Part shown: positions 334 through 47,056 of the stretch, piece after piece
How positions within the stretch are numbered: the first letter of the stretch is position 1
Layout of the letters: each line of letters begins with the position of its first letter
From: Minisyncoccota bacterium
Lineage (GTDB): Bacteria; Patescibacteriota; JACMRA01
DNA length: 64,000 nucleotides
Assembly (NCBI GenBank): GCA_043772945.1
Contig: JAYVFR010000023.1
Coordinates: 4,159-68,158, forward strand
Direction: 5' to 3'
The notes under the pieces: generated by a model
Told to the model about the DNA's origin: nothing
What the model saw: the letters and a program-made list of their open reading frames with translations, nothing else
Databases searched by the model: none
Position numbers and translations under genes: made by a program

Positions 334-1581
334 TTACAATGGGTTTTTTGAGACTAAAACAATTTTTTTGTTGTCCCAATTAGTTTGAATTTGGGTATAG
401 ACGTTTTTAATATCATCTACGCTAACGGACTGGAGTTTATTAGTAAATTCATCATATTTTTCTAGATGATTGTAATTTAGTAAAGTGTTTTTACTAAAAT
501 TTAAGACAGTTTTTAGGTTGTCTTTGTCAACTAATTGCTTTTTTAGGATACTTTTTTTAAATTGTTCAAATCTATCAGCACGAAAAACTTTTGTGAAATC
601 ATTAAATACTTCTTTGGATTCTTTTTCTATAATTTCTATTAATTTAGCCTCGGCTTGAAAATTTACGATTAAGCTTTGAGTTGAAATATCGTAATAATAA
701 CTTATTCCATAAACCAGTTGTTTCTGATCTCTTAATTTATCGTACAATACCCCACCGTAATTTAAAAATAAGCTAGCAAATATTTGGCGGCTAGCTCTAT
801 TATCAAATTTAATGTCAAGCGGAATAATGTAAGTAGCATCAACATGCTCATGAGCAAATTCGTGTACGATTGGTAGAGTTTTGAAATCTAACAAAAGATT
901 TGGTGGGCAGTAGTCTATTGGTCTAAAATGTTCTATTTGGCGGTTTAGGTTATTTAAATAATGTTGAATTAGTTCCTTAGTGTATTCTAAATCAATGCCA
1001 CCACCAGCAATAGAAATAATGATTTGACTGGTGCTTAAATTTTCTTTTTGTAGTCTATAAAAGTCTTCTAAAATAGTTTGAGCAACTAATTCTGGATCAC
1101 CGAGAGTTTCATGTAATTCTAGACTCTCCTTAGTGTAAACTTGCTTATTAACATCAAAATAGAGTTTGTAGTTAGGATCTCCTCTGCGTTCACTAATTTC
1201 CCTTAATACTATTTCTTTCTCTCTATCTAAATCAATTTGATCAAAAGTAGGTTCAAAGGCCATTTCACAAAGCATTTCTAGCATTTTTTTAAAATCAGAT
1301 TTATGGCCGCTAGCTGTAAGGGCAAGTTTTAAACTGCTGGTAAAAGCATTTAAAGCAATAGATTCAGCATGTTCCCAATCTTTTAGCTCTTCATGATTCA
1401 TTTTTTTAGTACGGCTTGCAATGCAATGTTCAAGTAAATGTTTTTTACCACGGTCGTTTGCTTTTTCAAACCAGGAACCCCCAGAAGTGAAGTTAATTTC
1501 TAAACTTACTAATTCTCGTGGTATATTGTATGAAAATAGATGTACTCCAGGAGCTGGTTGCTGATAATTAAATTCAGACAC
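334..1581 (-). CDS. M16 (pitrilysin/insulinase) family zinc peptidase
   Basis: 415-aa ORF with an N-terminal HxxEH zinc motif (KKHLLEHCIASR). Length and layout fit M16 peptidases. Confidence 0.75.
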   Translation of the reverse strand: MSEFNYQQPAPGVHLFSYNIPRELVSLEINFTSGGSWFEKANDRGKKHLLEHCIASRTKKMNHEELKDWEHAESIALNAFTSSLKLALTASGHKSDFKKMLEMLCEMAFEPTFDQIDLDREKEIVLREISERRGDPNYKLYFDVNKQVYTKESLELHETLGDPELVAQTILEDFYRLQKENLSTSQIIISIAGGGIDLEYTKELIQHYLNNLNRQIEHFRPIDYCPPNLLLDFKTLPIVHEFAHEHVDATYIIPLDIKFDNRASRQIFASLFLNYGGVLYDKLRDQKQLVYGISYYYDISTQSLIVNFQAEAKLIEIIEKESKEVFNDFTKVFRADRFEQFKKSILKKQLVDKDNLKTVLNFSKNTLLNYNHLEKYDEFTNKLQSVSVDDIKNVYTQIQTNWDNKKIVLVSKNPL

Positions 1582-1603
1582 AGTAGTGATTTTTATGATT
1601 GAT

Positions 1604-2053
1604 TTATACTATAGGTAACATTTTCTGAGTAATGTTATGGTAATCTCCTTTTAATAGCTTTAACCTTGTATTCATACGGACATCTTTCTGACGATTTTGT
1701 GGAAGCATACGTTTAATTGCTTGATAAAGTACTTTAGTTGAATCCATCGTCACTTGATCTTTAGCTAAACGAACTTTCAAAGAACCTACACGACCATTAT
1801 CGTAACGAAAATATGGTTTCTTATCCATTTTTTTCCCTGTAAAAACTAGCTTGTCAGTATTAGTAATCATGACACATCCGCCCATATCGACCGAAGGCGT
1901 GTAGTCAGCTCTGTTTTTGCCCATTAATATTGATGCAACACGGGAAGCTATTCTGCCAACTGGCATACTAGAAGCGTCTATTGTGTACCATTCGCGATGT
2001 AATCCTAAAACTTTAGGTAGTGAGGAGCGAACGGAAGTATAAATTTGAGCCAT
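1604..2053 (-). CDS. rplM: 50S ribosomal protein L13
   Basis: 149 aa. Typical L13 N-terminus (REWYTIDASSMPVGRIASRVASILMGKNRADYTP) and length. Confidence 0.95.
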   Translation of the reverse strand: MAQIYTSVRSSLPKVLGLHREWYTIDASSMPVGRIASRVASILMGKNRADYTPSVDMGGCVMITNTDKLVFTGKKMDKKPYFRYDNGRVGSLKVRLAKDQVTMDSTKVLYQAIKRMLPQNRQKDVRMNTRLKLLKGDYHNITQKMLPIV

Positions 2054-2107
2054 GTTATTATATTATTTATTGTAATTTTATTTATTCAAAAGATATTTAG
2101 AGGATCA

Positions 2108-2464
2108 TTAATCAACCAATTTTACAAGGCTAGTGTCATATTGACTAAACTCGCGACTTAATTTGTATTGTTGAGTATATCCGCCATTTCTATCAGTATA
2201 TTTTGGAGCAATTGTTTCTACTAGAATACGGGCCGTATCTTCGCTAAGGAAAGGACGAATTTTACGATAGGCTAATTGAGTATTATCTCCAGCTCGTTTG
2301 CACAAGGTTACTAGTCGTTCAAATCTAGGGCGAAACCACTTAGCGCGAACAGTGAAAGTTTTAATTTGCCCGTTTTTGATTAGGCCTGTTGAAAGATCGA
2401 TCCAGAGGCGACGACGTTCTTCTTCAGTACGGTGAAATTTTTGGGATTTTTTAAGATGGCGCAT
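2108..2464 (-). CDS. rplQ: 50S ribosomal protein L17
   Basis: 118 aa. MRHLKKSQKFHRTEEERRRL... and RAKWFRPRFERLVT are L17 hallmarks. Confidence 0.95.
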   Translation of the reverse strand: MRHLKKSQKFHRTEEERRRLWIDLSTGLIKNGQIKTFTVRAKWFRPRFERLVTLCKRAGDNTQLAYRKIRPFLSEDTARILVETIAPKYTDRNGGYTQQYKLSREFSQYDTSLVKLVD

Positions 2465-2745
2465 ATTAAATTTTTTTGTCTAAAAATTATTGATTTTAAG
2501 GATCAGGTAGTTATAAGCTAGTGAAACAGATAATCAGGCTATATCAGATAGCCAACATTAAAAGGGTTAATTTGTCAATAGTTATGATTTTTGTCCATAA
2601 TTAGGATGGGTCTGACTAGTGGTTATTGGTTTCAATTTTGCTAGATGGCTAAAACCTAATGCATTGACACAAAGTCAACTTTCTGTTAGACGTGTGTATG
2701 AGCTATATTACATAGTTCCTCGTTTAATTTTTTTTAATTCATTTT

Positions 2746-3171
2746 ATGTCAAACACTTCTTTATACTCTATAATAAACAGCTGGAATTTGGATAAAATCC
2801 TACAGTTTACCAAACTAGAATATCCAGAAATCTCTAACGAAGCTTGGCTGGAAGCGCTAGGAGAATACCGAAACTACATATACTTAGGAGTGGTTTCTGG
2901 TAAATATTTGCAAATCCCAAATAAAGTTATGGATTATATTTGGCACTCGCACATTCTTCACACCAGTGATTATCAAGATTTTTGTTACACTGTTAATGAT
3001 GGTAAGTTAATCCATCATGAACCATCTCTGTATGTTGAAACAAAGTTTAATGATGATTTCAAATCACTGTCAGCAACTTCAAAAAAATATTTAGGTTACA
3101 ATGCCTTCGAAACTACTAAAAACTCTTTAGTAAAGAACCTTGTTTTTAGTTGCCCAGGTATCACGAATTAA
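2746..3171 (+). CDS. hypothetical protein with GRDP/DUF1399-like motif
   Basis: 141-aa ORF. The motif DYIWHSHILHTSDYQDFC resembles the W-H-x-H-x-L...Y..C signature of glycine-rich-domain-protein-like (DUF1399) families. Unverified. Confidence 0.5.
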   Translation: MSNTSLYSIINSWNLDKILQFTKLEYPEISNEAWLEALGEYRNYIYLGVVSGKYLQIPNKVMDYIWHSHILHTSDYQDFCYTVNDGKLIHHEPSLYVETKFNDDFKSLSATSKKYLGYNAFETTKNSLVKNLVFSCPGITN

Positions 3172-4363
3172 TTAATATGTATAAAGAGTTGCTTTTTGTT
3201 TTGGATAAACTGCAGTTTAAGTTTTGATTAAAAATTTTACTTAAATACCAATTCACCTCTGGTCTTTTGATTACAAAATGGCAAATATTTTCTGAAAATT
3301 GAAAGTCTAATTTGTAATTAATTTTACCGAAGTCAATGGTAAAATCACTTTTACAAGTGACGTAATATTCACTGTCGTCAAAAAAAACAGGTAGCTTTTC
3401 TTCTTTGTCGTCTACTACGTAATTAGTAATGCCTAGTAATTTGTAAATAAAATTCCATCTCTTTTTGCGAAAACCACTACCTTTATAGGTAGTTTTTTGC
3501 TTTGTGTTTAAAGGGCTTTTATTCTCAGATTTATACGAGCTTTTAACAACAACATAATTGAACTTTGATACTAGTTGCAAGGCTCTGGAGAAATTATATT
3601 CCACATCAAGTGTGTTAAGAGTGCAACATTCTAAAAATAAGCAAAGATTAATTATTTTTTCTTCTACATTAACACTTTCTAAAAGAGTTTTTTGTAAACT
3701 ATCTTGCTCGTAATCTAGTTCGTAACAAATCCCTTCAACTTTAGCCCATGTCCTAACTTTTTGTAGTCTAATTTGATTCATTCTAGGGCTTGCACAAATT
3801 GAAATATACTTTCCGAAAGCTTTTTGAGCTTTTAAATATTTAATCAAATCAATTAGGCAATGAGTTCCATAATCGTGCCCAATTTCCGCTACATTAATTT
3901 TATAACCTTTTTTAATTAAATCATCGCAAACTGTTATCAAATAATCACTAGTTTCTTTCTTGCTTAAAGTACTCACGCTTTCTGAATTCATTAATTCTTC
4001 TTCTACAGCATTAAAATACATATCGGCTCCTTCGGCAAAGTAGCTATATTTAAGTGGAATGAAATTATTAGCCTCAAGATTGTATATTAAATCTGCTAAC
4101 TGATTAGGTGTAAAAGTTTTGTATATATCATTGTTTGGCTTAACAACTGTATTTTGAGCTTTAGGTTTATATCTAGAATTTAGGTTTTTAAGACGATAAA
4201 TTAAGTCAATATTATCTGGAGTATTTTTAATAAAATATTTCCCATTAACTCTAGACAAAATTAATTTTTCACTTCCTTCTATGCTGCGCTTAATCCAATT
4301 AGTGACAGTAGATGGAGATACATCAAATCTTCTAGAAATTTCAATATTGCGTATAACGGTCAC
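3161..4363 (-). CDS. HTH-domain protein with uncharacterised C-terminal region
   Basis: 400 aa. The N-terminus ISRRFDVSPSTVTNWIKRS looks like a helix-turn-helix. The middle region (INVAEIGHDYGTHCLIDLIKYL...YISICAS) vaguely resembles a Rossmann/methyltransferase-like fold. It follows the coupling-protein-like gene on the same strand. Confidence 0.55.
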   Translation of the reverse strand: MTVIRNIEISRRFDVSPSTVTNWIKRSIEGSEKLILSRVNGKYFIKNTPDNIDLIYRLKNLNSRYKPKAQNTVVKPNNDIYKTFTPNQLADLIYNLEANNFIPLKYSYFAEGADMYFNAVEEELMNSESVSTLSKKETSDYLITVCDDLIKKGYKINVAEIGHDYGTHCLIDLIKYLKAQKAFGKYISICASPRMNQIRLQKVRTWAKVEGICYELDYEQDSLQKTLLESVNVEEKIINLCLFLECCTLNTLDVEYNFSRALQLVSKFNYVVVKSSYKSENKSPLNTKQKTTYKGSGFRKKRWNFIYKLLGITNYVVDDKEEKLPVFFDDSEYYVTCKSDFTIDFGKINYKLDFQFSENICHFVIKRPEVNWYLSKIFNQNLNCSLSKTKSNSLYILINS

Positions 4364-36891: not shown

Positions 36892-38703
36892 ATGACTAAA
36901 AAAATTTTACTTTCATTAACTATTCTACTACTTTTTATTAGCACTCTTTCAATTTTAAGTATTAAAACTATCAACACTCAGGCCGCAACCAATGACTGGC
37001 AGGAAAAAGGAATTAACGTACAATCAAACTACGCTGAGGATTTTGCATCTGATAATTTCAAACAATCAATGCGTAAGGCTTACGAGGCAGGAATTCGCAC
37101 TGCTGTGCTTGTAGTTAGTTATTCGCAATCAAATCTTTATGCTGATGATTTGAAGCCTGCTTATAATACACCATCTGATAATGCTCTTCAGGTTGCTATA
37201 ACTTATTTGAAAAGTATTGGAATCACTCCTTCAATTAAAGTTTTTGCAGAAAGTCCTGATGGCTGGCGAGCTTATATGAATCCAACTAATCGTGATGCAT
37301 GGTTTACTAATTACAACAATATTTTAATTAAATACGCTAAAATTGCTGAATCTAATGGTTTAAAGCTTTTTTGTATTGGGACTGAGATGATTAAATTAAC
37401 TAGTAGTAACGAAAATCCTGACAATACTAGAAGATGGAAAGAGATGATAGCAAATTTACGTAAAATTTACAGTGGGAAACTTACTTATAGTGCCCAATTT
37501 GATAGAACTTGGTGGAATGAAATTGATAATATTGGGTTTTTTGATGATTTAGATATAATTAGTATTTCAGCTTATTACATACTTACTAAGTCAACTAATC
37601 CAAGTGTTGAGGATTTGAAATCTGCTTGGAGCCAGACCGAAGCAAGAGATATTTTGCCAATTTACAATAAATACAAGAAGCCAATAACTTTTACTGAATT
37701 TGGTTATAAATCTATGGATAGAGCTTTTGAAGTTCCTGGAGATTGGTCAATTAATAGTGGCTACAATGAAAACAATCAGGTTAACGGCTTTGAGGCATTT
37801 TTCCAATATTTTAGTAATAAACCATATTTTAATGGTGTTCACATTTGGGATTGGTCTACTAATCCTAATGCTGGGGGCTACGGCAATACTGATTATACTC
37901 CCCAGAACAAAAAAACTGAAGCGGTAATCAAAAAATATTTTGGAGGATCTGGAAGTGTCGTTTCATCATCTTCTTCAACTTCTACACAAACTAGCCCTGC
38001 AACTAGCTCAAGCTCAGCGAGTTCCTCAAGCTCTACACCAAACACAAATCCTAGTCCTCAAACTAAAACTTTTGGGTTAAGTGCCAATCAAAGCCAGAAT
38101 AATTTATTAGTTAATGTAAAAAATAACTCAAATACTAATTACAGTGGTTTAAATTTGATTATAGAAATTTATAATTCTAACAACCAAAGGGTGAATCAAA
38201 TTGTTTATGCTAACGCAAGTTATAAAGCTGGCGAAAAAGAAACTTTGACAATTGACTTAAACAAACTGCCTAAAACTGCGGGTAAATACACTATTAAAGT
38301 TGGAATTTTTAATACTAATTGGACAGTAGCGTACACCTGGGAAGGACTGGCTGGTGAATACACAATTAAAGAAAACACCGCTAATCCTGCAAATCCCATT
38401 CAGGCTCCAGGCAAAATTGAAATTTGGTGGCCAGCAGATAATAAGGCAGTTAGCGGAGTTCAGCCGTTTAAAGCAATCGTTAGCGGTATGAAATTAACAG
38501 ACTACAAAATGTATTGGCAAGTAGATAATGGCAGACTGATTGAGATGTACGATTCAAACGACGGTTACGCTCACAAAGAATCTTGGGTTGATTTATCTAA
38601 TTGGAAGTGGCAAGGAACAAACGCTTATACATTAAACTTCATTGCTAAAGACAAAGCAGATGTTACAATCCAGACCCAAACCACAAAAATCTATGTGAAG
38701 TAG
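36892..38703 (+). CDS. secreted clan GH-A-like TIM-barrel glycoside hydrolase with Ser-rich linker and C-terminal beta-rich domains
   Basis: 603 aa with a signal peptide ending TQAA. Candidate acid/base CIGTEM and nucleophile ITFTEFGY are spaced about 100 aa apart. A poly-Ser/Thr linker sits at about aa 355-385. Family not assigned. Confidence 0.65.
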   Translation: MTKKILLSLTILLLFISTLSILSIKTINTQAATNDWQEKGINVQSNYAEDFASDNFKQSMRKAYEAGIRTAVLVVSYSQSNLYADDLKPAYNTPSDNALQVAITYLKSIGITPSIKVFAESPDGWRAYMNPTNRDAWFTNYNNILIKYAKIAESNGLKLFCIGTEMIKLTSSNENPDNTRRWKEMIANLRKIYSGKLTYSAQFDRTWWNEIDNIGFFDDLDIISISAYYILTKSTNPSVEDLKSAWSQTEARDILPIYNKYKKPITFTEFGYKSMDRAFEVPGDWSINSGYNENNQVNGFEAFFQYFSNKPYFNGVHIWDWSTNPNAGGYGNTDYTPQNKKTEAVIKKYFGGSGSVVSSSSSTSTQTSPATSSSSASSSSSTPNTNPSPQTKTFGLSANQSQNNLLVNVKNNSNTNYSGLNLIIEIYNSNNQRVNQIVYANASYKAGEKETLTIDLNKLPKTAGKYTIKVGIFNTNWTVAYTWEGLAGEYTIKENTANPANPIQAPGKIEIWWPADNKAVSGVQPFKAIVSGMKLTDYKMYWQVDNGRLIEMYDSNDGYAHKESWVDLSNWKWQGTNAYTLNFIAKDKADVTIQTQTTKIYVK

Positions 38704-38842
38704 GTACGCGAAAAAAAGTACAAATAAAAAGCATTTGACAAAACCCTCATTTTTTTTTTTATGTTATTAGGTAGGTTTTGATAATTCATTTTATCATCGC
38801 TCATTGACCTACTCTTCTGCTTGAAACCAAGTAGATGAACTC

Positions 38843-39166
38843 ATGTTTAAGCGTTCTGGTTTTCAAAAAGCGATTGCAACTACTTTAAGCGTTGCTAGCC
38901 TTACAGCTCTTTCCATTTTGCCACTTGCTAAACCCGCAGAAGCGCTTGGTAAACCTATTCGACTAGGTGCACCCTTTACGATTTGTATCGATCGATCAGA
39001 TCCCAATTGCGTGTATCTTTTACGACGAGCAAACTTGTTTATTCCTGACAAAGACTGCAAAGTTTCTTATTCACGTGAATATCCAACTGTTAAGGTTGTT
39101 AGGGTCTGGGGAGTACCATTTTGTGCTGTTCTAGCAAGTGATGCGAAAACCACTCCTGAATCTTAA
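38843..39166 (+). CDS. small secreted cysteine-containing protein
   Basis: 107 aa with a signal peptide ending AKPAEA. The mature part has five Cys. Visibly more G+C-rich than its surroundings. Confidence 0.5.
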   Translation: MFKRSGFQKAIATTLSVASLTALSILPLAKPAEALGKPIRLGAPFTICIDRSDPNCVYLLRRANLFIPDKDCKVSYSREYPTVKVVRVWGVPFCAVLASDAKTTPES

Positions 39167-39192
39167 GTTTCTTTAAAATCTAGTTGATTTAC

Positions 39193-39230
39193 CTCTCTTA
39201 TCATAATTAAAAAAGGTAAGAGAGTTTTTT
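39193..39230 (+). terminator. Rho-independent terminator
   Basis: 8-bp stem CTCTCTTA/TAAGAGAG, a 16-nt loop and T6, 27 nt after the stop of the 107-aa gene. Confidence 0.55.
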
Positions 39231-39474
39231 AAATTCCATATTATGACCATCTCCAAATTCATTAAAAACTTAGATTATAAATTACAAGGCAATCCATTTT
39301 TTATAGTATGGCTTTTTTATATATGCCTTAGAGTACCTCTAATGTGGTATGAAGGATTAACAAAAATAATAAAAAAAAGAAATAAGTAATTTAAGCCATT
39401 CTACTTGCACATTATATTTTATTGTACCTAGTATTAGATTCTAATTCCCGAGGGTTCTTTTTAATTTAATATTT

Positions 39475-39546
39475 ATCAACCTTTAAATAGGCTTCAGTTG
39501 TAAAATTTTTAATCCATATTTTTGCATTTTCATCAAAGTTAAAATT
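39475..39546 (-). pseudogene. relic of the N-terminal coding region (codons ~25-48) of an RM enzyme like the one at 40891-44142
   Basis: 66 of 72 nt are identical to 43999-44070. The minus strand translates to NFNFDENAKIWIKNFTTEAYLKVD, against NFDSDEDAKIWIKNFTTGAYLKVD in the intact gene. It is followed at once by a stop and has no start codon. Confidence 0.7.
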
Positions 39547-40888
39547 TTAAGATTCTTATAATCTGCCCCTCACCAAAACCTAAACTTTTAAGAAAACAAT
39601 ATTTAGCAATCCTCTCAAGAATAAAAGCTAAATTAAAAGGAGGTGCTTTTATTAGGTTGTTTTGATCTACAGCATCACCATGCATTAAAGCTTTTTTAAG
39701 TTTAAGAAAGTATTCCGTGTAATTTATTGTTAATTTTAAATGATTGTTTAAATAATCACTATTATCAATTAGATAAGTGAATTTTTCTTTCCATGTAGGT
39801 CTATTATCCGTCATTTTTAATAACTTCGGAGTACCATTTTTGCAATTCCTCCAGTGATTGCTTTTTACAAACTCATTATATAAAGGTAGTTTAATCACCA
39901 CATTTAAGTAGTTTTCAATACCTTTAAAATAATTTGAGAGTAAATTTTCATATCCATTGTTGTCTTTCAATATATTAGATAAGGTGTAGCCATATAAAGT
40001 CGCAAATTTACTCCTGTTATTCCACCAATTATTTATAATGAATTCAAATCTATTAATAGTTTTTATATCAAACAAACAATTAATAGATTTACAAGGACTA
40101 CACAAACCTACTGAGTTTTCGGAAATAATTTCGAAACAAGTTTCTCCAATGTAACCACTAGTTTCTCTTATGTAACAATTACTTTGAAAAGCAAAGGATA
40201 AAAATCTTTGAAAAAAAGCTTGCAACTCTTCAATATCTTGAATATCAAGAAACTTACCTCTAATATCCCGCCTTATCTCTAGGAAATACATCTCTTTTAC
40301 ATCTAAATTTACACAATTACCATTTAAAATATAATTACCCAGTCCAAGACCTTTGACATAGCTTTTAACTCTTAAAATATAATCACCCAGTCGAAATATA
40401 CACAATTCGTCCTTTTTTCTATCCGCAGTTATTTGGTAAAAATCTAAATTTCTTAAATTATCCTTAAAAACATTCATCAATTTTAATTTGCCTAAATCAG
40501 AAAAGAATGTTGAAAGGTGATCAATCTTTAAGTGAATCTTTTCAAAGCTATTTTGACTTCTAAAGTCAGAGCTACACCTCCAGAAAACTCCATATCTAAA
40601 ATTGCTATATCTATGATTAAATCCATGAGAACCAATATTCATTGACGAACTCCCAGCATAAAAATGGAAAGAATTACCACGAGTATCAAAGCCTGAAACA
40701 TAATTAAACTCAGGGATATTGCTATCTCCATAAAGATCTCTTGTTTGTAATCTATCTTTAGCCCAATCAAAAATCTCAATTTCAATTCGTCCATTTTCAC
40801 GAATGAGGTATGTGCCGTGTTTTTCTATATCTTTATCAGTGTTAAAGTAGAATTTACATGGAATTCTTTCACATTTTATTATTGACAT
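39539..40888 (-). CDS. uncharacterised 449-aa protein coupled to the RM gene (candidate defence partner)
   Basis: Starts 2 nt after the RM stop. No TM segment or signal peptide. The N-terminal beta-rich pattern (HGTYLIRENGRIEIEIFD...VSGFDTRGNSFHFY) and a C-terminal helix LKKALMHGD faintly recall ApeA/HEPN-type abortive-infection proteins. Unverified. Confidence 0.6.
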   Translation of the reverse strand: MSIIKCERIPCKFYFNTDKDIEKHGTYLIRENGRIEIEIFDWAKDRLQTRDLYGDSNIPEFNYVSGFDTRGNSFHFYAGSSSMNIGSHGFNHRYSNFRYGVFWRCSSDFRSQNSFEKIHLKIDHLSTFFSDLGKLKLMNVFKDNLRNLDFYQITADRKKDELCIFRLGDYILRVKSYVKGLGLGNYILNGNCVNLDVKEMYFLEIRRDIRGKFLDIQDIEELQAFFQRFLSFAFQSNCYIRETSGYIGETCFEIISENSVGLCSPCKSINCLFDIKTINRFEFIINNWWNNRSKFATLYGYTLSNILKDNNGYENLLSNYFKGIENYLNVVIKLPLYNEFVKSNHWRNCKNGTPKLLKMTDNRPTWKEKFTYLIDNSDYLNNHLKLTINYTEYFLKLKKALMHGDAVDQNNLIKAPPFNLAFILERIAKYCFLKSLGFGEGQIIRILKF

Positions 40889-40890
40889 AT

Positions 40891-43800
40891 TTACTTCAAA
40901 AACTTATCTAAAATACCTTGTTTTTTTTGTTTAATTAGCTTGTCAAATTCTTGAGAAGATAATCCATCCGTAAATAGCCTACCTTTAGAATTTTCTAAAG
41001 ATTCTATTTCTTTTACAATCTTCCCTTGGATTTCTAACGGCGGAACTGGGATTTTAACTTGGTTTTTTAGATATTCACTATTTAGACTTTTACCAAATAC
41101 TTTTGCCCCTACACTTTCAGGTAATAGAATATTTGAATTCGTGAATAATTGGTATAAATATTGATTGGTTAAGCTATCATTTTTTGGAATCAGTCCAGCT
41201 ATTGCCTCGTTTGTGTATAAATCTTGTCCTGCAATTGCTGTTTTACCAATAGAAAGTTTAAAGCTTACTAAAGTCGTATCCTTTGGAATTAATTTTACAT
41301 TTGACTTTGAAACACCTTCATCAGATATTTTTTCTTTAGTTGTTGTAATAATCTGACCTTTCATTTCTGAAATCGAAACCCATAAATTTTCACCTTCAAA
41401 ATATTGATTTATTGCACGCGATGGTGTACCACCAATTAAAACATCACAAGCTTCGCCTAATTTAATCATCGGGTATTTGCTTACAACCTCTACGCTTCCA
41501 ACGACTTTCTTTGGGGTCAAGCTAATAGCTTTGTTAAAGCTGGTTCCCGTGAAATCAAGAAGGTTTGTAAGTGAGTGATAACTGCAATGTTTAGCTAGGG
41601 TTTCTGGTAGTTCTTGAATTTGTTCATTTTTAATAAAATTCTGGCGAATATAATAACTAATTTTTGTTTCATCATTCCTGTCTTTGGGGTTAAACATTAT
41701 TGTGTTGATGTCATGAATAGTGTCTCCGCCATAATAGTGTATTCCTTCACTACCCTTTGATCCACTCCACTCATAACCTACAAACTTCTTTCGATCTTTG
41801 GTCTCAGTTGGGCATCTTACGATCAAAACTGGCTTTGGGTTTGAGAAAGCGAGAACAAAGTAATACAATTTGTCTTTTTCAATGTCTTGGAGATACGTGG
41901 TGAAATTACTGTTATATTTTCGTTTTTTATCAGTGCTTAACTTATCAAAACTCACTTTATATTCTGTAAATATTTCCGTTTCTAAAAGTTCTTTGGTTGG
42001 TTTAACGTTCAAAAGGGTTAAATAATCTTCATGGTTATAATCATTGTGCTCGCAGTAGTTTTTGATTAGAATATTATCTTCAAAATCTTCGTTTGTAATT
42101 TGATTATCAAAAAAACTTTCTACCCTATCCTTGTAATGTTCTTCGATTTCAGGTCTTTCTTTTTTTCGTTCTAGATATATAATTAATGTGTTTGTGCCAG
42201 TTTTACCAAAAGTACTTGGCGGAAGTTCTACAATTGAAATAAAATTAAAATATCTAAGGAGAATTTGGCGGGTTTGGATACTGACTTTATCAGTATTTGT
42301 TAGGATTGTATTTGGGATTACGATTCCTGCAATTCCACCTTTATTAAGGAGCTGCTTTGCTCGCTCTAAAAAGAAGTTTTGGATGTCGTCATTGGTATTT
42401 ATGTCTGAAACGGTTTTTGTTAGTTCATATTTATCACGCTCCTCGACTGGGATAGTGGTTAAAAACTCCTTAACAGCAAAGGGCGGATTGGCAATTAAAA
42501 TATCAAAACTCTCTTCCTTGATTTTAGGATTTTCAATTAATGCATCACTATCAACAATATTCACACCATCAAAACCATACATAAAAGCACTAACTTTAGC
42601 CACTTTAGCAAGTCTATCTTCTTTCTCTATACCATAGATTTCTTTATAAAAACTGGTGGGATTTTGCCCGTTATTTTTAGCAATTTGTTCAATTTGACTA
42701 GCATATTCGGTTAAAAAATGTCCCGACCCGCAGGCGTAATCAATTACCTTCAATGGTTCTATATTTTGTCTAACCATACTTTCAAGTGGAAGCGACATCA
42801 GGATAAATTTACAAATAGGAACTGGGGTAAAATACTGACCCTCCGACTGCTTGACCCCATTATCAAGGAAAAACTCGAACATATCTCCTAAAAATTGATT
42901 CTGCTCTTTAGTTTTGAGTCTCAATGACTGCCACATTTGAGTAACCTCTAAAATTATTTTTACGTTTTTATTAAAACCTTCTTTGTTTTTAACCCCAATA
43001 AATCCAAAATTATTATCGTTATAAAATTTTAACTTTTTAAATAGCTCTTCGATTGTGTTTCTAGTTGCGTTTTTCTTATTTTTATATGCCCAGAATGCTC
43101 CCTCGATCTCTCCATTACTAACATAAGTTATTTCTTGCTCTAAATATTTCTCCATTCCCACCTTGTAGAGTTCCTGAAGCCTATCTATAAAATCGTAATA
43201 ATTATCATAGGCTATTCCTTTCCAATAAAATTTTAAATCTGTTGGGTTCTGAGTTTCATCAACAATTTTACACAAAAATAGATTTACAAGTATTTCAAAA
43301 GCATTTTCTTTCCTAGATACATTATATTTTCGCAAAATTGTAGCAAATTGATTGTATTTGCCTTTTTTATCAGCGTTTGTTATAATTCTTGTGTCATCTG
43401 ACAGAGTATATTTATCTTTACCAATTTGGTAAGGTTGCACATTATCTTCAAAAATACCACTCTCTGTAAATTCTAAATTATAAGTTTGTTGCCACACTCT
43501 AAATCTTTCCTTTACATTTTTAGCTCTTAAATAGCTTTCAAGGTTAGTATTTTCATCTAATATTTTTTGATTATCTTTATGAGATATAACTTTTTGATCT
43601 ACTATTATTTGATTAAGCTCTGAATTTAGACTACAGGCGTATAAACAAACATATTTTACATCTTTTTCTTGCTCAATATAGCTAAATAGTTGATCGCCAT
43701 CGTTTAGTGTTTTCTTCCAAGCGTTCTCAAATTCTTTGCCAGCTGTTTTGCATTCAATTATCAAGAGTGGTTTATTATTTTGATCTCTCACAAACACATC

Positions 43801-44142
43801 TGCCCTACCACCGCTTGCACCATGACCTAATTTCCACTTAGGTTCCAACTCAATATGCTCGGGTTTGTACCCTTTTTCAAATAGACGATTAACGCATTCA
43901 AATACTACAAAGTTTTCATCACTACTAAAATTAGTTGTAAATTCACCGTTCACAATAAAACGCTGATCGGTTGGGTAAATTAACTTTTGATTATCAAAAT
44001 CAACCTTTAAATAGGCTCCAGTTGTAAAATTTTTAATCCATATTTTTGCATCTTCATCAGAATCGAAATTCAGGGTTTTTAGTAAATCGGGTAACGTTTT
44101 TTTGTTGAGCATACATAAAATTAATCCAAAATCCTCCGCCAT
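40891..44142 (-). CDS. single-chain restriction-modification-specificity enzyme (type IIG/IIB-like)
   Basis: 1083 aa in three parts. (1) N-terminal PD-(D/E)xK nuclease: D115 in ADVFV, then E130-C-K132 in LLIIECK. (2) Gamma-class N6-adenine methyltransferase motifs GQYFTP, VIDYACGSGHFL and, at aa 552-555, NPPF. (3) One C-terminal HsdS-type target-recognition domain (LGEACDVLIGGTPSR...NLWVSISEM...YTNEAIAGL). Confidence 0.85.
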   Translation of the reverse strand: MAEDFGLILCMLNKKTLPDLLKTLNFDSDEDAKIWIKNFTTGAYLKVDFDNQKLIYPTDQRFIVNGEFTTNFSSDENFVVFECVNRLFEKGYKPEHIELEPKWKLGHGASGGRADVFVRDQNNKPLLIIECKTAGKEFENAWKKTLNDGDQLFSYIEQEKDVKYVCLYACSLNSELNQIIVDQKVISHKDNQKILDENTNLESYLRAKNVKERFRVWQQTYNLEFTESGIFEDNVQPYQIGKDKYTLSDDTRIITNADKKGKYNQFATILRKYNVSRKENAFEILVNLFLCKIVDETQNPTDLKFYWKGIAYDNYYDFIDRLQELYKVGMEKYLEQEITYVSNGEIEGAFWAYKNKKNATRNTIEELFKKLKFYNDNNFGFIGVKNKEGFNKNVKIILEVTQMWQSLRLKTKEQNQFLGDMFEFFLDNGVKQSEGQYFTPVPICKFILMSLPLESMVRQNIEPLKVIDYACGSGHFLTEYASQIEQIAKNNGQNPTSFYKEIYGIEKEDRLAKVAKVSAFMYGFDGVNIVDSDALIENPKIKEESFDILIANPPFAVKEFLTTIPVEERDKYELTKTVSDINTNDDIQNFFLERAKQLLNKGGIAGIVIPNTILTNTDKVSIQTRQILLRYFNFISIVELPPSTFGKTGTNTLIIYLERKKERPEIEEHYKDRVESFFDNQITNEDFEDNILIKNYCEHNDYNHEDYLTLLNVKPTKELLETEIFTEYKVSFDKLSTDKKRKYNSNFTTYLQDIEKDKLYYFVLAFSNPKPVLIVRCPTETKDRKKFVGYEWSGSKGSEGIHYYGGDTIHDINTIMFNPKDRNDETKISYYIRQNFIKNEQIQELPETLAKHCSYHSLTNLLDFTGTSFNKAISLTPKKVVGSVEVVSKYPMIKLGEACDVLIGGTPSRAINQYFEGENLWVSISEMKGQIITTTKEKISDEGVSKSNVKLIPKDTTLVSFKLSIGKTAIAGQDLYTNEAIAGLIPKNDSLTNQYLYQLFTNSNILLPESVGAKVFGKSLNSEYLKNQVKIPVPPLEIQGKIVKEIESLENSKGRLFTDGLSSQEFDKLIKQKKQGILDKFLK
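43999..44070 (-). repeat. direct repeat partner of 39475-39546, inside the RM gene 5' region
   Basis: See the relic feature at 39475-39546. The first 53 nt differ at only one position. Confidence 0.9.
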
Positions 44143-44242
44143 GTCAATTATATAATAAATTTAATTTCGGTGGTTTCTGGCGTTTTAAAACATAAATTGA
44201 CTAGACAAAAATATTTAGTATCAAGTAAAAAAACAAATTAAT

Positions 44243-44941
44243 ATGCCAGTGATTATAAAGATCGATAATCTATCTAAAAACTACGGCACCAAAAAGAACT
44301 TAATTAAAGCCCTTGGCCCAATTAGCCTTGAGATTAATAAGTCAGATTTTGTGGTGATTCTGGGTCGCAGTGGGAGTGGTAAGTCAACACTTTTAAATCT
44401 AATGGCTGGGCTTGATACTCCAACCGAGGGTAGGATTGTTGTAAGTCATCAAAACATTACTCATTCTAAATCAGGAACTTTGGCTAAGTACCGCTCTAAA
44501 ATTGGGATAATTTTTCAGTTTTATAATCTTTTGCCAAATTTGAATGTAGTTGAAAATATTCAAATGGGAGCTTGGGTTGCGGGAAATAGTGTTGATTCTA
44601 AATATCTTGACAAACTCTTGGAGCAATTTGGTTTAACTCATCGAAGGGGTGCAAATGTTAAAACTCTCTCTGGTGGTGAGAAACAGCGAGTAGCTATAGC
44701 TAGGGCACTAATTAATAAGCCGACAATTCTCTTTTGTGATGAGCCAACAGGAGCTCTTGATACTACTAATGAGAAGCAAGTTGAGTTAATTTTAAAGGAG
44801 TTAAATAACGAGGGTTTAACAATTGTGATGGTTACGCATAATCCAGAATTTTCTGATTTGGCAAACCAAGTAATTACAATGAAAGACGGTTTGATAATTA
44901 GCAATATTTTAAAAACTGTTGAAATAAATAAATCTAACTAA
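44243..44941 (+). CDS. ABC transporter ATP-binding protein (MacB/LolD/FtsE-like)
   Basis: Walker A GRSGSGKST, signature LSGGEKQR and Walker B ILFCDEPTGALD. Confidence 0.9.
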   Translation: MPVIIKIDNLSKNYGTKKNLIKALGPISLEINKSDFVVILGRSGSGKSTLLNLMAGLDTPTEGRIVVSHQNITHSKSGTLAKYRSKIGIIFQFYNLLPNLNVVENIQMGAWVAGNSVDSKYLDKLLEQFGLTHRRGANVKTLSGGEKQRVAIARALINKPTILFCDEPTGALDTTNEKQVELILKELNNEGLTIVMVTHNPEFSDLANQVITMKDGLIISNILKTVEINKSN

Positions 44942-44955
44942 AACAAACTAAAAAT

Positions 44956-46425
44956 ATGACTTCAAAATCTTTTTTGCTTATTCTAAGCAGGCAAATTACT
45001 AGTAAATGGGGGCGTACACTTCTTGCTAGTTGTGGGATTATGATTGGAATTTGGGCAATTACTCTGACTTCTAGCATTTCAATAGGGCTTTCTGACACTA
45101 TAATTGAGGCTATAAATTCACAATCAATTGCCAAGCAAATTACGCTTAATAAAACCAGTGCAGGTGAAGGTAGTTTCTTTGATTTGAAGGCTCCACCAGT
45201 TTTTGTTCCTTTTAGTCGGGAAGAAATTAGCTCTATTAAAACTAAATATCCTGAAATTGTAGATATTGGTCCTACTTCGCGAATGAATTTTTTTGTGCAA
45301 ACTAATTCAAATACTTTAGAACAAATTAAGTGCGTAGAGTTTGAAAATTCTATAAACTTGTCTATTACTCCTCAAAGCCCTAAACCAAAACTAGAAGATA
45401 CTAATAAATTAGCTAGTAACTGCAAAAATATTAGTCATAGCTTTACTGGTTTTGAAGAATTTTATGACGCCAAAAAAAAGAATTGGTACGGTCAAAAAAG
45501 CAAACCTGCAATTGGGGAAATTGCTCTCTGTTTTAAATGCGGAAACACAAATCTGAATCAAATTTTGAAAGTAGAAAAGCCTGAAGATCTTCTAAACAAA
45601 CAAATTCAAATTGAATTGCAACGGGCTCCAGAATTGTATGAAATAGGCAAAAATGTGGACGTAACTAATATTGATAGACCGGCTACTAAAATCAATAAAT
45701 CTGAAACAATAACTTTAAAAGTAGTGTCAGTAATTGACGATCGTGAGGCTAGTATTTTTGATGGATCGGCTATTTATTTTGATTACAATTATTTCCAAAA
45801 AGCCTTTGAGCTAGCCAGACCAAATGATAATTTTTTGCAATACGGATCAATTCAATACAATGTATTTTTGGATAAATACCAAAGTCTGGATAAAACTATA
45901 AATAGTTTGCGAGGTGATAAACTTTTAGCCTTTTCTGTAGCCCAAGAAACCATCAAAGGGGTATCGGTTGCCTTTCAAGTTTTAACAGTTGGGCTTTCGG
46001 CTCTTGGATTTATTGCATTAATTGTATCGGTATTTGGGATTATAAATGTGATGACAATCTCGGTTTTGGAGCGTCAAAAAGAAATTGGAATTTTAAAATC
46101 GCTCGGTGCTAGGAATTTAGACATTTTTGTTATGTTTTTATTAGAAAGTTCAATTCTTGGTTTGATTGGCTGGATTCTGGGAACTTTGCTGGCTTTCCTT
46201 TCAAATCTGGCAATCTCAAAAGTCTTTAAGCTAGTTCTAGAGAACAACAAAGATTTAAACTCGAGCTTAACGGGCTTGAATATTACTCAATTTAATCCTT
46301 CAATTCCTATTTGGCTTGGGTTTGGGACGTTGATTCTAGCCCTTTTCTTTACTATTATTTCAGGAATTTACCCGTCTTTTAAAGCTAGTCGCCAGAATCC
46401 AGTAGACGTCCTACGCTCGGAGTAG
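44956..46425 (+). CDS. FtsX/MacB-type ABC permease with large extracytoplasmic domain
   Basis: 489 aa. One TM helix, a ~300-aa loop, then three TM helices. The FtsX-domain motif is ERQKEIGILKSLGA. Confidence 0.85.
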   Translation: MTSKSFLLILSRQITSKWGRTLLASCGIMIGIWAITLTSSISIGLSDTIIEAINSQSIAKQITLNKTSAGEGSFFDLKAPPVFVPFSREEISSIKTKYPEIVDIGPTSRMNFFVQTNSNTLEQIKCVEFENSINLSITPQSPKPKLEDTNKLASNCKNISHSFTGFEEFYDAKKKNWYGQKSKPAIGEIALCFKCGNTNLNQILKVEKPEDLLNKQIQIELQRAPELYEIGKNVDVTNIDRPATKINKSETITLKVVSVIDDREASIFDGSAIYFDYNYFQKAFELARPNDNFLQYGSIQYNVFLDKYQSLDKTINSLRGDKLLAFSVAQETIKGVSVAFQVLTVGLSALGFIALIVSVFGIINVMTISVLERQKEIGILKSLGARNLDIFVMFLLESSILGLIGWILGTLLAFLSNLAISKVFKLVLENNKDLNSSLTGLNITQFNPSIPIWLGFGTLILALFFTIISGIYPSFKASRQNPVDVLRSE

Positions 46426-46484
46426 AATATTTTTAGCGCTATCCTTTACTTGGTGAAATAATTGCTATGCTTCGTTTGGTGTAG

Positions 46485-46512
46485 TGTCATGCCTCGTTTG
46501 ACGGGGCATCTA
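46485..46512 (+). repeat. left inverted repeat / hairpin
   Basis: tgtcatgcctcgtttgacggggcatcta. It is itself an 8-bp hairpin, ATGCCTCG/CGGGGCAT. Confidence 0.8.
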
Positions 46513-46517
46513 AAGAA

Positions 46518-46817
46518 TTACAAACATAACCTAGTAGCAAAAAGGTCTAATAACGTGGGGTTCGTATTTTTAACTAAATCAATCTTCCAGTCATATTTCT
46601 AATGTTTAATTTGTTTTTCACGAATAATAATTGATTCTATATTTTGACTTTGCTCCCAGTAGACTAATTTTTTGAGATTATATTTAGCAGTATAAGAATC
46701 TGGGTTGGTTTTATTTTTATGTTCAAAAATTCTTCGTTCTAAATCATTTGTCATTCCAACATAAAGAGGTTTATTGCTATTGTTAGTGATTATATAGGTG
46801 TAATAATTTTTAGTCAT
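46518..46817 (-). pseudogene. GIY-YIG nuclease family gene (UPF0213/YhbQ-like) interrupted by an in-frame TAG
   Basis: The 72-aa ORF at 46599-46817 carries YTYIITNNSNKPLYVGMTNDLERRIFEH. The same frame continues past the TAG as KYDWKIDLVKNTNPTLLDLF up to a TAA at 46518. The total of 99 codons matches the usual length of this family. Confidence 0.6.
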
Positions 46818-46834
46818 ATAAAATATTTGTTAAG

Positions 46835-46862
46835 TAGATGCCCCTTCAAGCGAGGCATGACA
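46835..46862 (+). repeat. right inverted repeat / hairpin
   Basis: tagatgccccttcaagcgaggcatgaca, the reverse complement of the left repeat with 2 mismatches. Confidence 0.8.
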
Positions 46863-47056
46863 GTAGGATAAGCCATCCGCCAGAATCTAGTAGACGTCCT
46901 ACGTTCGGAGTAAAGCTGGGTTTTATCTTTTTCAGTAGAAAATAGTAGAGTTACCGCCACTTATAGATTTTACTAAATTTTCAAACTGGTCATGAAATCA
47001 CAACAAAATTTTTGTTGATATAATTCATTATCAATTTCTAATGGATCGATTCTACT

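What the first reader, a model, noticed from the sequence alone, without database searches (positions are those of the whole stretch)
39475..44142. 4.5-kb RM-plus-partner module bracketed by 72-nt direct repeats; the distal copy is a relic of the RM N-terminus
39475-39546 matches 43999-44070 at 66 of 72 nt, and at 52 of the first 53. On the minus strand the relic encodes the equivalent of RM codons 25-48. It sits just past the end of the 449-aa gene, overlapping its stop, and is followed at once by a stop codon.

So the segment 'RM codons 49-1083 plus the 449-aa gene' lies between two copies of the same N-terminal handle. That is the expected product if a circular or incoming cassette recombined through this conserved 5' region and replaced the nuclease-methylase-specificity body and its partner in one step. 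I have not seen a cassette-exchange route for single-chain RM enzymes that uses an N-terminal coding handle described.
Basis: seen in the sequence. Interest (0 to 1): 0.65.

Follow-up and report, generated by a model that had tools for sequence, protein, structure and literature searches.

The report
Dead gene-fragment scar in defence islet
The 72-base repeat is real, but it looks like a dead leftover copy of the start of a restriction enzyme gene, sitting inside a small two-gene defence island that some strains carry and others lack, and nothing suggests it works as a gene-swapping site.

Summary
Window 39475-39546 matches 43999-44070 at 66/72. There are only two copies in the window, and none is expected by chance.

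The interpretation mostly fails.
1. Two strain-level metagenome contigs join the flanks directly. Window ~39411-44167 is therefore one 4.76-kb presence/absence unit that contains both repeat copies. The empty site has no copy of the 72-mer.
2. The N-terminus is the least conserved non-specificity part of this Type IIG family. In 114 pairs of homologues with N-termini at least 80% identical, none has a divergent body, while 48 have divergent specificity domains.
3. Among 84 family loci, only this islet has an N-terminal remnant. Four others carry C-terminal remnants.
4. No other copy of the handle was found in the collections searched.

The secure copy is 61 nt (59/61). The other 11 nt overlap the partner gene's own stop codon and read best as junction microhomology.

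Best reading: a non-functional scar of illegitimate recombination. It is either a short ectopic patch or a collapsed partial duplication, inside a horizontally acquired Type IIG RM plus ApeA-like HEPN islet.

Interest is low. The conserved RM/ApeA-like linkage is the more interesting by-product.

The parts
39411..44167 (.). 4.76-kb two-gene defence islet, present or absent as one unit between strains. The right edge is uncertain between 44167 and 44182.
   Evidence: L009/L010 positions 1-1500 match window 37914-39410 (91%). Positions 1525-3865 match window 44183-46512 (96.8%). About 24 nt in L009 replace the islet. No target duplication, terminal inverted repeat or mobility gene is present. 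GC is 30.7% against 32.2% for the window.
39411..39474 (-). 64-nt tail between the remnant and the islet's left edge; origin unknown.
   Evidence: It has no similarity to RM sequence after the handle in four alleles (scores at or below the shuffle mean). The only hits among all loci are to the same islet.
39475..39546 (-). Distal repeat copy: a non-coding remnant of RM nt 43-114, counted from the M11 start. The secure core is 39475-39535. Positions 39536-39546 overlap the partner gene's stop codon and are probably junction microhomology.
   Evidence: It has no start codon, and stop codons lie on both sides in its frame.
39539..40888 (-). 449-aa partner gene, a distant ApeA-like HEPN protein (ApeA_NTD1 plus HEPN_Apea). 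Its HEPN RxxxxH motif reads KKALMH.
   Evidence: No Pfam hit at E <= 0.01 and none to either ApeA model at E <= 5. A profile of P0121 plus P0122 finds only 8 proteins among 1.84 billion representatives. Of these, P0131 hits HEPN_Apea at 6e-12, and P0137 hits ApeA_NTD1 at 2e-22 and PADLOC PDC-S58 at 1e-30. The gene starts 2 nt after the RM stop codon.
40891..44112 (-). Single-chain Type IIG restriction-modification gene: a PD-(D/E)XK nuclease, a gamma-class N6-adenine methylase and one HsdS-like specificity domain. It encodes 1073 aa from M11. The ORF is open up to an ATG at 44142.
   Evidence: Pfam hits HSDR_N_2, N6_Mtase, Eco57I and Methylase_S. PADLOC REase_MTase_IIG scores 1197 bits, with residues 11-1058 matching model positions 1-1050 of 1271, so the second specificity domain is missing. 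Thousands of homologues exist, mostly about 1250-1280 aa.
43999..44070 (-). Proximal repeat copy, inside the RM gene. It covers codons 15-38 from M11, which are codons 25-48 of the longest ORF.
44113..44167 (-). Islet-borne RM upstream region. It holds a TATAAT (44152-44147) and a TTGACA (44147-44142) read directly from the sequence.
   Evidence: Sequence. The consensus promoter scan did not list this region, so promoter function is only inferred.

Best explanation
The distal copy is a dead, non-coding ectopic copy of about 61 nt from the 5' coding region of the islet's own Type IIG RM gene. An illegitimate, microhomology-level recombination event placed it directly behind the stop codon of the ApeA-like partner gene.

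I favour one of two routes. The first is a single short-patch event, in which a short single strand copied from 4.5 kb upstream annealed at the AT-rich stop-codon context and was built in, as in short-patch double illegitimate recombination. The second is a partial tandem duplication of 'RM body plus partner' whose second copy was later almost wholly deleted.

The event happened inside the islet before, or independently of, the islet's arrival at this chromosomal site, because the islet is gained or lost as one unit that carries both copies. The remnant has no demonstrable function. Its only mechanistic consequence is inferred, not shown: 61 nt of near-identical direct repeat could allow rare RecA-dependent loss of the RM body and the partner together.

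Shown: the repeat, its origin in the RM gene, the indel unit, the empty site without a copy, and the lack of N-terminal conservation or mosaicism in the family.
Inferred: the type of recombination event and its timing.
For: The repeat is real and unique.

The secure copy is 59/61 identical to the resident gene. The closest other allele, L003 (90% aa identity), is only 73-83% identical in 60-nt windows over the first ~250 nt. The copy therefore came from this gene or a near-identical one, not from an older, different resident.

Both differences in the core are G in the gene and A in the remnant, as expected for decay of non-coding DNA in a genome of about 32% GC.

The copy has sharp ends. Nothing after it resembles RM sequence beyond codon 48. 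Upstream of it lies the partner gene's native C-terminus.

The junction lies on AAATTTTAA at the partner's stop codon, which resembles the RM sequence just before the copy (7/11 with the resident allele, 9-nt exact with the L003-type allele).

The size fits the 3 to ~100 bp patches described for short-patch double illegitimate recombination at extended microhomologies.

Empty-site contigs show the whole 4.76-kb islet as one indel with no handle at the empty site.

The islet carries no recombinase or transposase.
Against: The microhomology argument is weak. About 3% of random 36-nt islet windows align as well to the L003 N-terminal DNA.

The sequence that existed before the event is unknown, so the second junction cannot be tested.

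Short-patch events are extremely rare in the laboratory. The duplication-plus-deletion route needs two events.

If all 72 nt are taken as homologous, five of the six mismatches cluster in 19 nt. The remnant then reads NFNFD like allele P0005 rather than NFDSD, which could instead point to a different source allele.
Confidence: 0.6

Rival explanations
1. An incoming or circular cassette carrying a new RM body plus the partner recombined with a resident RM gene through the shared 5' coding region, by Campbell-type or homology-facilitated illegitimate recombination. This left the old gene's codons 15-38 behind the partner gene. The old body was later deleted, and the whole product then moved to this site.
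For: The topology is what such an event predicts. Read over all 72 nt, the remnant differs from the resident gene in a 5' cluster and matches allele P0005 at NFNFD, which is compatible with a different source allele. Remnants of replaced gene ends do occur in this family at the C-terminus: L036, L057 and L082, and 32 nt behind a Fic gene in L006.
Against: The empty site has no handle. No trace of an old body follows the remnant. The N-terminus is the least conserved non-TRD segment, at both protein and DNA level. In 0 of 114 pairs with the same N-terminus is the body different, whereas 48 have different specificity domains. None of about 80 other loci has an N-terminal remnant. The handle was not found elsewhere. 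The 59/61 core identity is far above inter-allele identity, so 'old' and 'new' would have been nearly the same gene.
Confidence: 0.17
2. The direct repeats are a working switch. Recombination between them excises the RM body plus the ApeA-like gene as a 4.5-kb circle and leaves a promoter plus a 38-codon stub. This would give programmed or frequent on/off variation of both defence genes.
For: The two copies share an exact 33-nt run within a 61-nt stretch at 59/61. From general knowledge of RecA-dependent recombination, that length should be enough for occasional recombination. Logan contigs break at the repeat, but this is also what k-mer assembly does at any repeat.
Against: There is no recombinase gene, no inverted-repeat shufflon architecture and no stub-only allele. 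The only alternative allele seen lacks the whole islet. An excised circle would not replicate. Islet sequences are identical in the two other ENA assemblies of the one sample that span it.
Confidence: 0.04
3. Chance similarity in AT-rich DNA, or an assembly artefact.
For: The genome is AT-rich, and the outer 11 nt of the repeat are no better than chance.
Against: There were 0 matches in 100 shuffles and blastn gives E = 2e-24. The copy is imperfect, with unique flanks. It is reproduced in other assemblies of the sample, and k-mer assemblies from other runs break at it.
Confidence: 0.01

Closest known systems
RM gene units flanked by direct repeats (Furuta, Abe & Kobayashi 2010, PMC2853133): 'insertion with long target duplication' versus 'substitution'
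   Same: This is an RM unit without mobility genes. It is present or absent between close strains and is associated with a direct repeat longer than 30 bp.
   Different: In a long target duplication the repeat aligns with a single copy at the empty site. [quoted passage not shown] The repeat brackets only part of the RM gene plus a partner, and one copy is RM coding sequence.
Specificity-domain (TRD) exchange in Type I and Type IIG enzymes (allelic TRD diversity, PMC2853133; domain movement, PMC3077401)
   Same: It is modular replacement within an RM gene through conserved flanking sequence, and it can leave remnants of replaced ends.
   Different: This family clearly does this at the C-terminal specificity end: 48 pairs have the same body and a different TRD, and four loci carry C-terminal remnants. 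The window's remnant is N-terminal, and no body exchange is seen.
Short-patch double illegitimate recombination (Harms et al. 2016, as summarised in bioRxiv 10.1101/2023.11.22.568220)
   Same: It produces an ectopic patch of tens of bases from elsewhere in the genome, built in at imperfect microhomologies, with sharp ends and no other rearrangement.
   Different: It is known from selection experiments in Acinetobacter baylyi at about 1e-13 per cell. Here it is only inferred from the product, and the second junction cannot be checked.
ApeA, a HEPN anticodon nuclease defence protein (Gao et al. 2020, from my own knowledge; bioRxiv 10.64898/2026.01.26.701840)
   Same: The 449-aa partner has the same two-domain layout by transitive profile hits.
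   Different: The relationship is very distant, and direct Pfam hits fall below threshold. The HEPN arginine is a lysine. The gene is in an operon with an RM gene rather than standing alone.
RM.BsaXI and the two-TRD Type IIB/IIG single-chain enzymes
   Same: The methylase core is shared (PDB 8w0p, E = 2.5e-28). The family is PADLOC REase_MTase_IIG.
   Different: The window enzyme has one specificity domain instead of two, like a minority of the family (about 1090-1110 aa).

Membership tests
Insertion with long target duplication (Kobayashi group) | The inserted unit contains the R and M functions and no other mobile element | tested here: met
   The islet holds a fused R-M-S gene plus one partner and no integrase or transposase.
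Insertion with long target duplication (Kobayashi group) | A direct repeat longer than 30 bp flanks the whole insert | tested here: not met
   The repeat is 61-72 nt, but both copies lie inside the indel unit. One is 98 nt from the right edge and the other 64 nt from the left edge.
Insertion with long target duplication (Kobayashi group) | The repeat aligns with a single copy at the empty site of a related genome | tested here: not met
   L009 and L010 have no match to either copy.
   N-terminal conservation is 0.52, against 0.71-0.87 in the neighbouring nuclease and methylase core blocks. In 0 of 114 pairs with the same N-terminus do the bodies differ. DNA identity to the closest allele is 73-83%.
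   This needs raw reads or PCR.
Phase-variable RM shufflon | Inverted repeats flank alternative specificity modules, next to a recombinase | tested here: not met
   The repeats are direct and N-terminal, there is no recombinase, and there is only one TRD.
Short-patch double illegitimate recombination product | An ectopic patch of 3 to ~100 bp with an identifiable source | tested here: met
   The core is 61 nt, and its source lies 4.5 kb away in the same islet.
Short-patch double illegitimate recombination product | Microhomology (possibly extended) at both junctions | tested here: inconclusive
   The 5' junction matches 7/11 with the resident allele and has a 9-nt exact match with the L003-type allele, but 3% of control windows do as well. 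The 3' junction is untestable without the ancestral sequence.
Type IIG restriction-modification enzyme | A single chain with a PD-(D/E)XK nuclease, an N6-adenine methylase (NPPF motif) and a specificity domain | tested here: met
   Pfam and PADLOC hits. D115, E130, K132 and N552-P553-P554 are invariant in the family alignment. Enzymatic activity was not tested.
ApeA (HEPN defence protein) | An ApeA N-terminal domain plus an Apea-like HEPN domain | tested here: inconclusive
   Support is only transitive. P0131 and P0137 pass Pfam thresholds and match the 449-aa profile. P0122 scores 19.4 bits against a cutoff of 24.4, and P0121 has no Pfam hit. The AlphaFold model was too poor for a fold search (pLDDT 42).
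ApeA (HEPN defence protein) | The catalytic HEPN RxxxxH motif | tested here: not met
   P0121 and P0122 have KKALMH and KKALLH where relatives have RNALAH or RHSIAH.

The most novel reading that the evidence does not exclude
The repeat could mark a real plug-in site. In this lineage, a non-replicating circle carrying 'RM body plus ApeA-like partner plus handle' would integrate into, and excise from, a short promoter-plus-N-terminus stub by homologous recombination. Both defence genes would then be gained, lost or swapped in one step through a coding-sequence handle. The evidence does not exclude this for the donor lineage, because no donor locus was found and read-level junctions could not be searched.
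Probability: 0.06. Interest if true: 0.6.

Novelty: new member of a known kind. Interest (0 to 1): 0.2.

Why it matters
As it stands, this is one more rearrangement scar at a restriction-modification locus, and it teaches little that is new. Its main value is negative. A direct repeat that brackets a defence module need not be an exchange site, and an empty-site comparison settles that quickly.

Two by-products are more useful. First, the family-wide result shows that specificity domains, not enzyme bodies, are what is exchanged, and that this leaves C-terminal remnants. Second, a very rare ApeA-like protein is tightly linked to methylase-plus-specificity modules in two unrelated architectures. 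That linkage could be tested as a coupled two-layer defence.

Tried and rejected
- Extending the repeat. A gapped local alignment of both surroundings gave only low-grade AT-rich similarity beyond the 72 nt. The 64-nt tail shows no similarity to RM sequence after the handle in four alleles.
- A remnant reaching into the partner gene's C-terminus. Rejected, because P0122 aligns to the last residue, so that sequence is native.
- The relic keeping an ancestral NFNFD state. Rejected as weak. The matching bases lie in the partner's own stop-codon context, and L003 is simply AT-richer at every difference.
- Synteny search in species-representative genomes with the FtsX permease. No relatives were found. 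Strain variants came instead from cluster members.
- PilM-variant contigs. They belong to a relative in which synteny is lost at the site.
- Handle search by degenerate DNA patterns in JGI metagenome contigs (twice) and in viral contigs. No hits.
- N-terminal 52-aa protein search. It returned nothing because of the word index.
- Partner gene in viral contigs. None found.
- Structure prediction of the partner. pLDDT was 42, so no fold search was run.
- Promoter and terminator scan of the islet. Hits were at shuffle level, with nothing at the remnant.
- Rfam. Only two tRNAs, both far away.
- Organism identity. No source names the proteins.
Full report
**Observation**

Window 39475-39546 and 43999-44070 align without gaps at 66/72, and at 52/53 over the first 53 + strand bases (family D1). 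The 53-mer, allowing 3 mismatches, occurs exactly twice in the window and never in 100 shuffles. In a self-search of the locus the match has blastn E = 2e-24 and tblastn E about 4e-7.

On the minus strand the order is:
- a Type IIG RM gene (40891-44142 as the longest ORF);
- a 449-aa gene (39539-40888), starting 2 nt after the RM stop codon;
- the distal copy, which overlaps the 449 gene's stop codon by 8 nt;
- 64 nt of unrelated sequence.

The distal copy has no start codon and has stop codons on both sides in its frame.

Two refinements apply. First, the RM protein almost certainly starts at M11 (44112). The PADLOC Type IIG model aligns its positions 1-1050 to residues 11-1058, and homologues start MLNK or MINK. 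The repeat therefore covers codons 15-38. Second, blastn-short keeps only 61 nt at 59/61. The remaining 11 nt, with four of the six mismatches, cover the 449 gene's stop-codon context. That context is native to the 449 gene, because its one close homologue, P0122, aligns end to end at identical length. I read those 11 nt as junction microhomology, not as copied sequence. This also removes the apparent clustering of mismatches. All six mismatches are transitions, and the two in the core are G in the gene and A in the remnant.

**What the genes are**

The RM protein has an HSDR_N-type PD-(D/E)XK nuclease, an N6-adenine methylase (Eco57I/N6_Mtase) and one HsdS-like specificity domain. It scores 1197 bits on PADLOC REase_MTase_IIG but stops at model position 1050 of 1271. 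It therefore lacks the second specificity domain that most of its thousands of homologues carry. The nearest solved relative is RM.BsaXI.

The 449-aa protein has no Pfam hit at E <= 0.01, and no hit to either ApeA model even at E <= 5. A word-indexed search found a single homologue. A full HMMER scan of 1.84 billion representatives with a two-sequence profile found eight proteins. Two of these place it:
- P0131 (E = 5e-46 to the profile) hits Pfam HEPN_Apea at 6e-12.
- P0137 (full-length match) hits ApeA_NTD1 at 2e-22 and PADLOC PDC-S58 at 1e-30.

It is thus a very distant ApeA-like HEPN protein. The HEPN arginine is a lysine in both close members. The structure model was too poor to use. The one close homologue sits directly behind a separate methylase gene, a specificity gene and a T5orf172 nuclease gene. 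tblastn with the window RM protein finds no match in that contig, so those genes are at most distant relatives of the window's RM. The partner relationship is therefore conserved, though on only two examples.

**The decisive comparison: the empty site**

Cluster members of the neighbouring FtsX permease led to strain-level contigs. In L009 and L010 the GH113 gene, the 105-aa gene and the ABC ATPase gene are adjacent. L009 1-1500 matches window 37914-39410 (91%), and L009 1525-3865 matches window 44183-46512 (96.8%). About 24 nt stand in place of window ~39411-44167.

The indel unit therefore contains everything: the tail, the remnant, the partner gene, the RM gene and 55 nt upstream of it. The empty site has no copy of the 72-mer. 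The islet has no target duplication, no terminal inverted repeats and no mobility gene. Its GC content is only slightly below that of the window.

The islet sequence is identical in two other ENA assemblies of a single sample. Logan contigs from two further runs carry the same RM start and break inside the repeat at window 44022, as k-mer assemblers do at a repeated 33-mer. So the repeat did not arise by recombination between an incoming cassette and a handle resident at this locus.

**Is the N-terminus a conserved handle?**

It is not. In an alignment of 114 long homologues, mean column conservation is 0.52 for residues 11-50. It is 0.71-0.87 in the neighbouring nuclease and methylase core blocks, and only the specificity domain is lower. 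Against the closest allele (L003, 90% aa identity, truncated by an IS1 element), DNA identity is 73-83% over the first 250 nt and 90-95% at nt 271-420.

Among the 114 pairs with N-termini at least 80% identical, none has a body below 75% identity. By contrast, 48 have specificity domains below 50%. The family exchanges specificity domains, which is the known pattern (PMC2853133, PMC3077401). It does not exchange bodies.

I fetched 80 family loci from species-representative genomes. I then searched each locus with its own gene. The only N-terminal remnant is the one in this islet. C-terminal remnants of 30-40 codons at 94-97% nucleotide identity lie downstream in L036, L057 and L082. In L006 a Fic gene is bracketed by 32-nt copies of the RM gene's 3' end.

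Degenerate-codon patterns for the handle found nothing in JGI metagenome contigs or in viral contigs.

**How the remnant most likely arose**

The core is 59/61 identical to the resident gene, in a segment where the nearest known allele is only 73-83% identical (60-nt windows). The source was therefore this gene or a near-identical copy, which argues against an older, different resident gene. The ends are sharp: native partner sequence upstream and unrelated tail downstream. The upstream junction sits on AAATTTTAA, which resembles the RM sequence just before the copied stretch.

Two routes fit:
- A single short-patch ectopic insertion at imperfect microhomology. Its size range of 3 to ~100 bp matches.
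- A microhomology-mediated tandem duplication of 'RM codon 15 to partner stop', followed by deletion of nearly all of the second copy.

I cannot separate them. The microhomology is statistically weak (3% of control windows do as well), and the ancestral sequence is unknown. [quoted passage not shown]

I give it about 0.17. A working excision switch is not excluded at read level, but it has no positive support.

**Verdict**

The remnant's origin was correctly identified, but the cassette-exchange mechanism is not supported. The feature is a rearrangement scar inside a small, horizontally acquired defence islet, and interest is low. The more interesting lead is the operon-level linkage of a rare ApeA-like protein with RM modules. 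A recent preprint reports that one ApeA variant (Ec2ApeA) is activated by 5'-phosphorylated deoxydinucleotides, thought to be intermediates of DNA degradation (10.64898/2026.01.26.701840). Any functional coupling to the RM nuclease here is speculation on my part.

Noticed in passing
window 39539-40888; L005 4007-5356: The 449-aa partner is one of only about eight detectable members of a very rare ApeA-like branch, and its HEPN arginine is replaced by lysine (KKALMH). In both full-length close members it directly follows a methylase-plus-specificity module of a different architecture: a fused Type IIG gene here, and a split M plus S with a T5orf172 nuclease in L005. A 2026 preprint reports that an ApeA variant is activated by deoxydinucleotides from DNA breakdown, so coupling to the RM nuclease is a testable idea.
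   Followed up: partly
L036 7935-8051; L057 14232-14331; L082 13906-14008; L006 10699-10730: C-terminal remnants of the RM gene (the last 30-40 codons, 94-97% nt identity) lie 50-480 nt downstream of the intact gene in three family loci. In L006 a Fic gene is bracketed by 32-nt copies of the RM 3' end. These look like footprints of specificity-domain or cargo replacement at the 3' end.
   Followed up: partly
window 46382-46912: A segment of about 400 nt carrying a small GIY-YIG gene is inverted relative to strains L008-L010 (blastn hits in reverse orientation at 85%). It is flanked by 31-nt inverted repeats (46482-46512 and 46835-46865). A 43-nt copy of the FtsX gene's 3' end (46382-46424) recurs at 46870-46912. 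The GIY-YIG ORF is 72 aa here and 103 aa in the other strains.
   Followed up: no
L003 2341-3107: The closest RM allele (P0005, 90% aa identity) is cut off after 750 residues by an IS1-family transposase insertion, so its specificity domain cannot be compared.
   Followed up: no
window 40891-41200 (RM C-terminus): The window RM has one specificity domain (1073 aa), whereas most of the family has two (about 1250-1280 aa). The partner gene starts 2 nt after the stop codon. A minority of relatives (P0004, P0010, P0041, P0090, P0118) are also single-domain, so this is probably a natural variant rather than a truncation.
   Followed up: partly
window 38700-38900: Identity between the window and the empty-site strain drops to 64-85% around the start of the 107-aa gene, while the rest of the flank is 89-97%. 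This is a local hypervariable patch on the islet's left flank.
   Followed up: no
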